64,000 bases of DNA, from IMG/VR virus record IMGVR_UViG_2721755646_000010; one strand, 5' to 3'. Positions 30,001 through 33,000 of this stretch are shown here, piece by piece. This DNA is from a virus. Lineage: Duplodnaviria > Heunggongvirae > Uroviricota > Caudoviricetes. A program made the position numbers. How positions within the stretch are numbered: the stretch's first letter is position 1; every line of letters begins with the position of its first letter.

Positions 30001-33000
30001 TGGTGTTTAATGAATTAAGCGTTACCGAACCGGCGACAGTCGGGGAGATTGCGCAGAATACTTACCTTTCACGCGAACGCTGCCAGTTAATACTGACCCA
30101 GCTGGTTATGGCGGGTCTGGCAGACTATCAGTGCGGTTGTTACAGACGCATTCAGTCCTGAAGGCTTTTTATTTGTGGTAAATGGGCGGCTGGTGGGGGG
30201 GGCGGCACCTGTCAGTCCTTTGCTTATGTGTTGATGATAATTTACCTTTTGGGGCTATAATTGAGCTAACCAATTGCTAATGAAAGTAAAATTATAATGG
30301 CTGTTGTCTGTTCAGTTATCATGGTTTGCTCCCCAATTAATATTTTTCTTGAAAAGGATACGTTGTCACTTAAGCCAGGCTCAGTCGTTCTGGCCACCAA
30401 ATGCATCAGGGAGCTTTTCCTTATGCATTATGGCAAAGTTAAAATTGTCGATATAAGCGAATCCGTCGTAAGTCAATATCTGGAAAGTCAGCATAAGCTG
30501 ACGAGGACTCGTCTGACTGACATTCCGCTTTACCTGTTGCTGGAACCCAACAATCCTGCGTTGGCTGCGGCTTTAATTACCAGCCAGGGATTTTCCGGAG
30601 AGGTCACGGATATGTTTCTTATGATGGCCTGCCTGTCTCTGTTTGAAACAGATGAACGGATGTCATTGTTTTTAAGTGGATGTTTATCCAGCATAAGTGC
30701 CAAAGTCAGGGCGATAATTCAGACAGATATATCAGCAAGCTGGACGCTTGGTGCGATTGCTCTACAGTTGCATATGAGTGAGAGTTTGTTAAAGACAAAA
30801 CTGAAAAATGAAGGGGGCATGTTCAGTCGCTTGTTGCTGGAAGAGCGGATGCGTGTTGCTGTAAATATGTTATGTTCCCGGTATGGATATGGACAGGCTG
30901 TAGCAGAAAAATGTGGTTATTCAAGCCGGTCCTACTTTATTTCTGTATTTCACCGCTATTATGGCTTCCCGCCAGACAGATATGTATCCAGGCAAGGGCT
31001 TGATTATTGATTTTCATCTGATTATTATTTTTTGGCTCGGCCCTTTAGCTCAGTGGTGAGAGCGAGCGACTCATAATCGCCAGGTCGCTGGTTCAAATCC
31101 AGCAAGGGCCACCATCACAAACCGCCATTAGCTTATCAGGAAGAGCAGACGACACCATAACAGGGTTGTTGGTGCGGGGCCGGGTCCCCGATGGCGGTCC
31201 ATTATCGGTATTCTGCGTTGTTAGCTCAGCCGGACAGAGCAATTGCCTTCTAAGCAATCGGTCAGTGGTTCGACTCCACTACAACGCGCCACACTTATTT
31301 TCCAGGCTCGCTTCGGCGGGCCTTTTTTGTATCTGCGCCACGCCCGGCGCATACCAACCACAGAGCCTTTCGGGGGTGAGCTTACGGAGTGGTCAGTGTG
31401 ACTTTCTCTGTGGGCAGATCGCTCCCGGGCGTTGGCTCACCCACCCAAAGGAACGTCACGATGTTTGGAATCTTCAAAAAGAAAACCCGCAGAGCGGCAA
31501 CGGAAATTAAAAAGTTTGAAAAACGCGATCTGGCACAGGTGGTGATTAACGCCGCATACCTGGTGGCCTGTGCAGATGGTGAATGTGAGGCATCCGAGAA
31601 AGCGAAGATCGAACAGGTACTGCGTAATCAGCCTGCGCTGTCCGCGTTTACGTCAGAAATTAATGCGATTAGCGCAACCATTATCGGTCAGCTGGATACG
31701 AACTTTAAAACTGGTCGTCGTGCGGCGTTACGTGAGATTGAGGATGTGAAACACGATACGCGTGAAGCGGAAGATGTGCTGGATGTGGCGGTGGCCATTG
31801 CGGAGGCAGACGGCGAAATTGAGCCGGAAGAGCGCAAGGTGCTGGAAGAGATTGCCGGTGTTCTGGGTCTTCGTCTGGAGAATCACCTGTGACGGTAAAA
31901 CTGCGCCTGGCTGTGGCTGCACTCCTGCTGTTTCTGGTGGTGATGGTGGATTTCACCAGCAGAATCATGTCGGTGCTGGCGGATGGGGTGCTGGTCTGCG
32001 GCATTGTGGTATTGCTGTGGCCGGTGATAAAAAGAAACAGCCTGCATAATGCTTGATTTTTTTGTTTGCTGTTTATTAAAAACACTTCTGCATGGTGAAT
32101 CCCCCTGTGCGGAGGGGCGATCAGCAACCAGGTATATGGGATAATCGCGGATTCAGGTGCTGATACTGAATTCACCGGGAGGCACCCGGCACCATGCTTT
32201 GCCACAAAAGTGTTGTTTCTGTTTTTCTCAAACTATCATCGTTATCCCTTTATTTCCGGCTGCGCATGGCGCGGCTTTTTTTTACGACCAGCCACTGGCA
32301 GATGGTCATCCTGTGATTTGATTCCGGTTCCGGCTTTTTAACTCTGTTCCTGTACACGGGAGAAATTCGATGTCGATTAAACATTATGATGTTGTCAGGG
32401 CGGCGTCGCCGTCAGACCTTGCGGAAAAGCTGACACACAAACTGAAAGAGGGCTGGCAGCCGTTTGGTAGTCCGGTGGCCATAACCCCTTATACCCTGAT
32501 GCAGGCGATTACAGCAGAAGGTGATGTGGTGGTCAGTGGTGCAACTGAGCCGGATTGGTACTACGTCATCGTACTGGCCGGGCAGTCCAATGCCATGGCT
32601 TACGGTGAAGGGCTTCCGCTGCCGGATTCATACGATGCTCCGGATCCGCGCATTAAACAGCTGGCGCGCCGCAGTACAGTGACGCCGGGTGGGGCTGCCT
32701 GCAGATATAACGATATTATTCCGGCCGACCACTGCCTGCATGATGTGCAGGATATGAGTACGCTGAATCATCCGAAGGCAGACCTGAGCAAAGGGCAGTA
32801 CGGCTGTGTCGGCCAGGGGTTACATATTGCCAAAAAACTGCTCCCGTATATCCCGAATAACGCGGGGATCCTGCTGGTACCATGCTGTCGTGGTGGTTCG
32901 GCATTTACCCAGGGCGCGGAGGGGATATTCAGCGAGTCCACGGGGGCCAGCCAGGATTCGGCGCGCTGGGGTGTGGGTAAACCGTTATATCAGGACCTGA

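What the first reader, a model, noticed from the sequence alone, without database searches (positions are those of the whole stretch)
30297..31010. AT-rich AraC-family regulator inserted between Q and the tRNA genes
A 237-aa AraC-type protein with a clear C-terminal double helix-turn-helix is encoded in a low-GC island, preceded by a 65-aa ORF. Prophage-borne AraC regulators in EHEC have been tied to acid resistance and LEE control. This one, with the PerC-like gene at 37728, suggests the prophage carries regulators aimed at host virulence loci.
Basis: partly seen in the sequence, partly recalled or inferred. Interest (0 to 1): 0.45.

Follow-up and report, generated by a model that had tools for sequence, protein, structure and literature searches.

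The report
Known prophage regulator PsrB of EHEC

Summary
The ORF at 30297-31010 (+, 237 aa) is real and intact. It carries a C-terminal AraC-type double helix-turn-helix. It lies between the phage Q antiterminator gene (29173-29739) and two tRNA genes (31039-31114 and 31215-31291).

It is 100% identical to Sakai ECs_2191 in prophage Sp11. It is also identical to WP_000301797.1 in the OI-57 region of the finished EDL933 genome. It is 90.7% identical to ECs_1087, which the Tree laboratory calls psrA. [quoted passage not shown]

According to that literature, PsrB binds the gadE and hdeA promoters, raises acid resistance, and represses LEE type III secretion through GadE and YhiF.

- The protein is a full-length homologue of PatE, GadW, AppY and YdeO, including the N-terminal MxxVCSVI motif. 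The 237-aa start is therefore correct and Sakai's 195-aa annotation is too short.
- The upstream 65-aa ORF is a generic lambdoid gene that follows Q. It is not a partner specific to psr.
- Psr homologues always occupy the slot between Q and the lysis genes. In phage phiSTEC1575-Stx2k one sits just upstream of stx2.
- The "low-GC island" is modest: 43.8% against 51.9% for the prophage.

Verdict: already known, low interest.

The parts
29173..29739 (+). Phage late antiterminator Q (DUF1133 type). It marks the start of the late-operon leader in which psrB sits.
   Evidence: Pfam DUF1133 E 3.7e-105 and Phage_antitermQ at 33.1 bits against a cutoff of 26. PHROG phrog_753 'anti-termination protein Q-like' E 5.8e-81. 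Sakai ECs_2193 is annotated 'phage antiterminator'.
29811..29842 (+). Strong intrinsic-terminator hairpin (GC stem plus U-run) 72 nt after the Q stop codon. It occupies a tR'-like position and is also the left edge of the module shared with prophage Sp4.
   Evidence: RNA fold of 29740-29850: -37.6 kcal/mol, z -3.6, and no shuffle of 200 folded as well. Homology with Sp4 starts at 29829. The pattern scanner did not list this hairpin.
29964..30161 (+). 65-aa ORF with a possible small winged-helix fold, named 'TrmB family' by NCBI. It is a generic lambdoid gene that follows Q. The true ORF may be the 106-aa version starting at 29841.
   Evidence: RefSeq WP_000917763.1. PHROG phrog_331 E 3.9e-37. 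Found in 55 phage records, including Stx2a/c/d phages, phiP27 and SfV. In L010 and L011 a methyltransferase gene separates it from the psr homologue. It is frameshifted in the Sp4/CP-933M copy. In the 106-aa frame, similarity runs from residues 5-7 onward in phages at about 55% identity.
30234..30261 (+). Sigma-70-like promoter candidate (ATGATA-16-TATAAT) in the AT-rich spacer upstream of psrB. Function is inferred only.
   Evidence: The scan gives 10 of 12 matches, but the number of sites in the region is no higher than in shuffles. The element is conserved in the Sp4 and Stx2k-phage copies, as is the whole spacer.
30297..31010 (+). psrB: 237-aa AraC/XylS-family regulator, with an N-terminal domain of the YdeO/GadW/AppY/PatE type and a C-terminal double-HTH DNA-binding domain.
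31039..31114 (+). tRNA with anticodon CAT, annotated ileZ (tRNA-Ile2, which decodes AUA).
   Evidence: ARAGORN, Rfam tRNA at 72.5 bits, and Sakai annotation ileZ5.
31215..31291 (+). tRNA-Arg (TCT), argO, which decodes AGA/AGG.
   Evidence: ARAGORN, Rfam, and Sakai annotation argO5.
31304..31333 (+). Terminator-like hairpin plus T-run just after argO. It coincides with the right edge (31331) of the module shared with Sp4.
   Evidence: Terminator scan and blastn boundaries 29829-31331.
37728..38042 (+). pchB, a PerC-family activator of LEE, on the same prophage. Per the cited reviews, Pch regulators activate type III secretion and so act opposite to PsrB.
   Evidence: Identical to Sakai ECs_2182, pchB. 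RefSeq names it 'PerC family transcriptional regulator'.

Best explanation
The gene is psrB (prophage-encoded secretion regulator B; EDL933 Z2104 in O-island 57 / CP-933O; Sakai ECs_2191 in Sp11).

It is an AraC/XylS-family transcription factor carried as cargo in the late-operon leader of a defective lambdoid prophage. The local order is Q, terminator, small ORF, psrB, ileZ, argO, terminator.

It is a full-length paralogue of the host's own acid-resistance regulators (GadW, YdeO, and AppY of the K-12 DLP12 prophage) and of the prophage regulator PatE. Its DNA-binding domain is 41-42% identical to that of GadX.

According to the published work, it binds the gadE and hdeA promoters and switches on the glutamate-dependent acid-resistance regulon. 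Raised GadE and YhiF then repress LEE type III secretion. This opposes the LEE activator PchB, which is encoded 7 kb downstream on the same prophage.

Shown here: sequence identity, domain architecture, family relationships, gene context and purifying selection.
Taken from the literature: the target promoters and phenotypes.
Inferred: that in the lysogen the gene is expressed from its own AT-rich promoter, which is probably silenced by H-NS/Hha.
For: - The ORF is intact and has the AraC DNA-binding domain.
- It is 100% identical to Sakai ECs_2191 extended to the upstream ATG. It is also identical to WP_000301797.1 at 1,905,274-1,905,987 of the finished EDL933 genome. There it follows a tandem upstream prophage with NleG7 and IS256::ISEc8, the same junction layout as window 11026 onward.
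- It is 90.7% identical to ECs_1087, which PMC13502914 names psrA. Reviews describe PsrB (z2104, OI-57) as 90% identical to PsrA and give its targets and phenotypes. PMC10057817 cites PsrB and PatE as prophage AraC regulators of the AR2 system.
- The O157:H7 records listed carry two copies. Both were located in Sakai and in EDL933.
- Full-length blastp alignments starting at residue 1: PatE candidate 37%, GadW 34%, YdeO 31%, AppY 29%. All share the N-terminal MxxVCSVI motif.
- The NCBIfam YdeO model aligns to residues 1-229.
- The GadX DNA-binding domain matches in sequence (3mkl, E 2e-18) and in fold (TM 0.9).
- dN/dS is 0.22-0.43.
- pchB and three DUF1076 (NleG-type) effector genes lie on the same prophage.
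Against: - The primary papers (Tree 2011, Yang 2015, Bender 2012) and the original EDL933 record with Z-numbers were not available. The equation with Z2104 therefore rests on genomic position, the 90% identity figure and elimination, not on a direct sequence match.
- The literature places psrA (Z1789) in OI-50. In the finished EDL933 genome the OI-50 prophage next to potC has no psr gene, and the second copy lies in the prophage next to yccA. Locus naming in this family is therefore not fully consistent.
- Reviews report that deleting psrB alone had little effect on secretion. Its native expression may therefore be low.
- No regulatory activity can be tested with these tools.
Confidence: 0.88

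Rival explanations
1. It is the paralogue PsrA rather than PsrB. The family and mechanism would be the same and only the name would differ.
For: The two proteins are 90.7% identical. Published locus assignments are inconsistent with the finished genomes: psrA is given as Z1789/OI-50 in reviews, as ecs1087/Sp4 in PMC13502914, and no psr gene is present in the finished OI-50.
Against: - The window protein is identical to the copy at 1.905 Mb in EDL933, in the Sp11/OI-57-type prophage with DUF1133-type Q and pchB; the window's own prophage ends in three DUF1076 (NleG-type) genes, as in strain FDAARGOS_293.
- The laboratory that named the genes equates psrA with the other copy, ecs1087.
- The Q gene of the OI-50 prophage is of a different family from the one next to this gene.
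Confidence: 0.07
2. It is mainly a phage-directed regulator or a silent remnant. On this view it controls phage late or lysis genes, or nothing at all, and the host effects seen on overexpression are cross-talk from its similarity to GadW and YdeO.
For: - It sits inside the late-operon leader, directly after Q and a terminator.
- Homologues at 58-92% identity occupy the same slot behind several different Q families. A PatE-like homologue sits between Q and holin in lambda-like phages.
- Deleting psrB alone had little effect on secretion.
- The host prophage is defective, with a truncated integrase and exonuclease.
Against: - Reviews report direct binding to the gadE and hdeA promoters. They also report better survival of the mouse gastric acid barrier when psrB is induced.
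- The gene is under purifying selection in a prophage that can no longer excise.
- Its closest non-Psr relatives are all regulators of the acid-resistance regulon.
- No phage function is known for this family; PHROG phrog_1450 is 'unknown function'.
Confidence: 0.05

Closest known systems
PsrB (Z2104, O-island 57 / CP-933O, E. coli O157:H7 EDL933; ECs_2191 in Sakai Sp11)
   Same: The sequence is identical to the Sp11 / OI-57-region gene. The neighbours are the same: Q, ileZ, argO and pchB on Sp11/OI-57, with an NleG-type (DUF1076) trio at the prophage's end in the window. The paralogue is 90.7% identical, as published.
   Different: No difference was detected. Sakai annotates a 195-aa product that starts 42 codons too late.
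PsrA (ecs1087, Sakai Sp4; given as Z1789 in the literature)
   Same: 90.7% amino-acid and 94.1% nucleotide identity. The same module of small ORF, psr and tRNAs (29829-31331, 92.6% identity) is bounded by the same terminators.
   Different: It follows a different Q gene plus a CAAX protease gene. It has three tRNA genes instead of two, and its small upstream ORF is frameshifted. Reviews report a clear deletion phenotype for psrA but not for psrB.
PatE (Z0321, OI-8; candidate ECs_0287 in Sakai Sp1)
   Same: It is a full-length homologue at 37% identity over residues 1-232. It is prophage-borne and activates hdeA and gadE through the same hdeA promoter region, according to the review.
   Different: It is far more divergent. 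It lies at the end of a degraded prophage rather than in the slot between Q and the tRNAs. That ECs_0287 is PatE is inferred from its location and family, not verified.
Host acid-resistance regulators GadW, YdeO, GadX, and AppY (DLP12 prophage) of E. coli K-12
   Same: The two-domain architecture and the N-terminal MxxVCSVI motif are shared with GadW, YdeO and AppY. The DNA-binding domain is 41-42% identical to that of GadX. All converge on gadE.
   Different: Overall identity is only 29-34%. The protein fails the NCBIfam equivalog cutoffs for YdeO (106 against 348 bits) and GadX (87 against 500). It is therefore a paralogue and not an orthologue.
Rns / CsvR / ToxT virulence AraC regulators (solved structures)
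   Same: These are the best full-length structural matches, with Foldseek E down to 2e-10. Sequence similarity covers residues 110-230.
   Different: TM is only about 0.4, because domain orientation differs and the N-terminal domain is modelled with modest confidence. PsrB is 28-40 residues shorter. Fatty-acid binding, as seen in Rns and ToxT, was not examined and is unknown for PsrB.

Membership tests
AraC/XylS transcription factor family | C-terminal DNA-binding domain of about 100 aa with two helix-turn-helix motifs | tested here: met
   Pfam HTH_AraC at 50 bits (cutoff 26.6) and HTH_18 at 37.8 bits (cutoff 33.6). GadX DNA-binding domain 3mkl E 2.2e-18. AlphaFold2 model pLDDT 83-94 over residues 131-190 (72 for 191-200, 88-93 for 201-230), and Foldseek TM 0.89-0.91 to 3mkl.
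AraC/XylS transcription factor family | N-terminal companion (regulatory or dimerisation) domain | tested here: met
   Residues 1-130 align with the N-terminal domains of PatE, GadW, YdeO and AppY from residue 1 and with the YdeO model at positions 1-230. The model shows beta strands followed by helices, at only moderate confidence (pLDDT 48-77).
Psr prophage-encoded secretion regulators (PsrA/PsrB) | Sequence identity to the named O157:H7 proteins | tested here: met
   100% identical to ECs_2191 and to EDL933 WP_000301797.1 in the OI-57 region. 90.7% identical to ecs1087, named psrA.
Psr prophage-encoded secretion regulators (PsrA/PsrB) | Direct match to the Z2104 entry of the original EDL933 record (AE005174 / NC_002655) | not testable with these tools
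   NC_002655.2 is not in the collection and the primary papers are not held.
Psr prophage-encoded secretion regulators (PsrA/PsrB) | Located on a lambdoid prophage, together with a Pch regulator and type III effector genes | tested here: met
   pchB lies at 37728-38042, and three DUF1076 (NleG-type) genes lie at 60040-62181 on the same prophage.
Psr prophage-encoded secretion regulators (PsrA/PsrB) | Activates gadE/hdeA and represses LEE type III secretion | not testable with these tools
   Taken from the literature only (PMC10877973, PMC8565820, PMC10057817).
YdeO (NCBIfam NF007407 equivalog) | Score above the curated equivalog cutoff | tested here: not met
   106.1 bits against a cutoff of 348. 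30.7% identity to K-12 YdeO.
GadX (NCBIfam NF007432 equivalog) | Score above the curated equivalog cutoff | tested here: not met
   87.3 bits against a cutoff of 500. Only the C-terminal half aligns.

The most novel reading that the evidence does not exclude
psr genes always sit in the late-operon leader, after Q and a tR'-like terminator. This is the slot that stx occupies, and in phiSTEC1575-Stx2k a psr homologue lies immediately upstream of ileZ-argN-argO-stx2k.

Q-mediated antitermination during SOS or prophage induction might therefore drive a burst of PsrB. A Q protein of the same type from a co-resident prophage could do the same in trans. That would couple prophage induction to activation of acid resistance and shut-off of type III secretion. 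The flanking tRNAs decode the AUA and AGA/AGG codons in which psrB is unusually rich, and might boost its translation.

Nothing found in the papers read here addresses this. It is inference from gene order only.
Probability: 0.2. Interest if true: 0.4.

Novelty: already known. Interest (0 to 1): 0.12.

Why it matters
The gene helps explain how EHEC prophages rewire core regulons. A phage-borne paralogue of the GadW/YdeO family feeds into gadE. This improves survival in stomach acid and switches off the LEE secretion system. The LEE activator PchB is encoded on the same prophage. All of this has been published for PsrA, PsrB and PatE.

This re-examination adds three modest points:
- The Sakai gene model is 42 codons too short.
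- Across the loci examined here, with several different Q families (and one copy inside an Stx2k phage), the slot between Q and the lysis genes is where these regulators are carried.
- The published O-island assignment of psrA does not match the finished EDL933 genome.

Tried and rejected
- **Primary papers.** Tree 2011, Yang 2015 and Bender 2012 could not be read, and the original EDL933 record NC_002655 is not in the collection. The identity was built instead from Sakai, the finished EDL933 genome and reviews.
- **65-aa ORF as a psr-specific co-regulator.** Rejected. The ORF occurs in 55 phage records without psr, is separated from psr by a methyltransferase gene in other loci, and is frameshifted next to psrA.
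- **Orthologue of YdeO or GadX.** Rejected, because the scores are far below the equivalog cutoffs.
- **Shorter 195-aa start (Sakai annotation).** Rejected. The first 42 residues are conserved down to 39% identity and carry the family's MxxVCSVI motif.
- **Promoter scan.** It found one good candidate upstream of psrB, but no more sites than in shuffled sequence, so it is only a hint. No convincing pR' was found between Q and the terminator.
- **Rfam.** It found no known regulatory RNA inside 29740-31010, only the two tRNAs.
- **HnrS sRNA (PMC13502914).** The paper places it in Sp9, Sp10 and Sp12, not in the Sp11-type prophage. It was not searched for in the window.
- **Exact source of the window.** No complete RefSeq genome covers window 1-20000 as one place. 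The window is 99.9% identical to EDL933 from 11026 onward but differs at 4873-10334.

Full report
**Observation**

The window has an ATG-initiated ORF at 30297-31010 on the + strand encoding 237 aa. Pfam finds HTH_AraC (E 2.9e-13, two stretches) and HTH_18 (residues 155-230), both above their gathering thresholds.

- The gene at 29173-29739 is a Q-type antiterminator. It matches DUF1133 and Phage_antitermQ and PHROG 'anti-termination protein Q-like'.
- A 65-aa ORF lies at 29964-30161.
- Two tRNA genes follow, at 31039-31114 (anticodon CAT, annotated ileZ/tRNA-Ile in RefSeq) and 31215-31291 (Arg, TCT).

The low-GC signal is real but mild. psrB is 43.8% GC and the upstream spacer 41.5%, against 51.9% for the prophage. 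The dip also covers Q.

**Identity**

The region is 100% identical to many E. coli O157:H7 genomes. The gene occurs in 725 of 5,426 complete E. coli genomes. The O157:H7 records listed have two copies each.

In strain Sakai the window gene is identical to ECs_2191 in prophage Sp11, once that gene model is extended to the upstream ATG. The second Sakai copy is ECs_1087 in Sp4, at 90.7% amino-acid identity. A 2026 paper from the Tree laboratory calls ecs1087 psrA (PMC13502914).

Two reviews describe PsrB (z2104, O-island 57) as the closest homologue of PsrA, at 90% identity (PMC10877973 and PMC8565820). In the finished EDL933 genome the identical protein, WP_000301797.1, lies at 1,905,274-1,905,987. 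The window is 99.9% identical to that region from coordinate 11026 onward, so the junction layout (NleG7, IS256::ISEc8, DinI, truncated integrase) is the same. The PerC-family gene at 37728-38042 is identical to Sakai pchB.

I therefore identify the gene as psrB. The identification is by position, by the 90% identity figure and by elimination. The original Z-numbered record and the primary papers were not available.

**Anatomy of the protein**

Blastp aligns the protein from residue 1 with:

| Protein | Identity |
|---|---|
| PatE candidate (Sakai ECs_0287) | 37% |
| GadW | 34% |
| YdeO | 31% |
| AppY | 29% |

All share an N-terminal MxxVCSVI motif. GadX and EnvY align only over the C-terminal half, at 41% identity.

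The NCBIfam YdeO model aligns to residues 1-229, but at 106 bits it is far below the equivalog cutoff of 348. An alignment of 14 Psr-family proteins, down to 39% identity, keeps M1, V3, C5 and S6 invariant and the first 42 residues well conserved. The 237-aa start is therefore correct, and Sakai's 195-aa model is truncated.

An AlphaFold2 model (mean pLDDT 75) gives a confident seven-helix DNA-binding domain. It superposes on the GadX DNA-binding domain, 3mkl, at TM about 0.9. The N-terminal domain of strands followed by helices is less confident. The full-length matches are Rns, CsvR and ToxT.

dN/dS is 0.43 against PsrA and 0.22 against the Stx2k-phage homologue, which indicates purifying selection.

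**Anatomy of the locus**

Homology between the Sp11-type and Sp4 copies runs from 29829 to 31331 at 92.6% identity. The Q genes to the left of that stretch are unrelated.

- The left edge coincides with a strong hairpin plus U-run at 29811-29842.
- The right edge coincides with a terminator-like hairpin at 31304-31333, just after argO.

The shared module is thus: terminator, small ORF, psr, tRNAs, terminator.

A promoter-like site (ATGATA-16-TATAAT, 30234-30261) lies in the spacer. The region has no more such sites than shuffled sequence, so this is only a hint.

The 65-aa ORF is not specific to psr:
- It is found after Q in 55 phage records, including Stx2a/c/d phages, phiP27 and SfV.
- A methyltransferase gene separates it from the psr homologue in two other loci.
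- It is frameshifted next to psrA.
- It may really be a 106-aa ORF starting at 29841.

**Family distribution**

Psr-like proteins at 57-93% identity are confined to E. coli and Shigella. In every locus examined the homologue lies between a Q gene and the SASA esterase and lysis genes, although the Q genes belong to several unrelated families.

In the Stx2k-converting phage phiSTEC1575-Stx2k the order is Q, small ORF, psr homologue (91.6% identity), ileZ, argN, argO, stx2A, stx2B. A 38%-identical, PatE-like homologue sits between Q and holin in a set of lambda-like coliphages.

**Mechanism**

The literature gives the following for PsrB:
- It binds the hdeA promoter (-132 to -45) and the gadE promoter.
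- It raises acid resistance, and induced expression improves survival of the mouse gastric acid barrier.
- It represses type III secretion indirectly through GadE and YhiF when supplied in trans.
- Deleting psrB alone has little effect.

The results here explain why this wiring is plausible. PsrB is a paralogue of the host's own gadE activators (GadW, YdeO, AppY) and has a GadX-like DNA-binding domain. Expression in the lysogen from its own AT-rich promoter is my inference. That this promoter is silenced by H-NS/Hha is also my inference. It fits the report that psrA goes up when the sRNA HnrS represses hha.

**Rivals**

1. The gene could be PsrA rather than PsrB. This is unlikely given its location and the ecs1087 assignment.
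2. It could be chiefly a phage-directed or silent gene. This is unlikely given the reported direct binding at host promoters, the purifying selection in a locked-in prophage, and its relatives in the acid-resistance regulon.

**Novelty and verdict**

This is a known, experimentally characterised gene. The overstatements concern only the GC dip and the role of the small ORF.

The one reading not excluded that would be new is that position in the Q-controlled late leader couples PsrB expression to prophage induction. That rests on gene order alone.

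Noticed in passing
window 30297-30422; Sakai NC_002695.2 ECs_2191 and ECs_1087: The Sakai reference annotates both psr genes as 588 bp (195 aa), starting 42 codons downstream of the true start. The missing N-terminus carries the MxxVCSVI motif shared with YdeO, GadW, AppY and PatE.
   Followed up: yes
L015 (EDL933 NZ_CP008957.1 1,625,000-1,674,000) and L017 (1,245,000-1,294,000): Reviews place psrA (Z1789) in O-island 50. In the finished EDL933 genome the potC-adjacent prophage carrying NleL, EspN and EspK has no psr gene between Q and TerB. The PsrA-type copy (WP_000261909.1) lies in the yccA-adjacent prophage together with a PerC-family gene, as in Sakai Sp4. This could be a misassembly in the original record or a strain difference.
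   Followed up: partly
L013 (phage phiSTEC1575-Stx2k, OQ243220.1 16,748-19,071): An Stx2k-converting phage carries a Psr homologue (91.6% identity) in the same late leader as stx2k. Only ileZ, argN and argO separate it from stx2A.
   Followed up: partly
window 30297-31291: psrB is rich in rare codons: ATA for 4 of 14 Ile, and AGA plus AGG for 5 of 13 Arg. The two tRNA genes immediately downstream (ileZ with anticodon CAU, argO with UCU) decode exactly these codons.
   Followed up: no
window 29841-30161: The annotated 65-aa ORF may be the end of a 106-aa ORF that starts right after the terminator's T-run. tblastn similarity in that frame extends to residues 5-7 in phages only about 55% identical, although it comes as two pieces in many of them. 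PHROG phrog_331 is 111 positions long.
   Followed up: partly
window 32061-32233 (+): Rfam finds a full-length STnc100 sRNA (104.7 bits) between the DUF3927 gene and the SASA esterase gene. Partial copies of this stretch recur several times in related loci.
   Followed up: no
window 26571-26745 (+), 19310-19361 (-), 5935-6001 (-): Rfam hits to the sok antitoxin RNA (next to a hok/mok gene), to DicF, and to sar antisense RNA (next to an ant gene).
   Followed up: no
window 1-16800: The left part of the window is the tail end of a second, tandem prophage. It holds tape-measure and tail genes, sar/ant, a 782-aa ORF of the same length and context (after the Ant and C40-peptidase genes) as the nleL gene of EDL933 OI-50, nleG7, and IS256 interrupted by ISEc8. 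No complete RefSeq E. coli genome matches window 1-20000 as one piece. Window 4873-10334 differs from the finished EDL933 genome.
   Followed up: partly
L002/L003 (strain FDAARGOS_293, NZ_CP022050.2): In this O157 strain the same psrB prophage sits inside abgT, next to ogt and fnr, and is flanked on both sides by IS1203. This suggests that an IS- or prophage-mediated rearrangement moved it relative to Sakai and EDL933.
   Followed up: no
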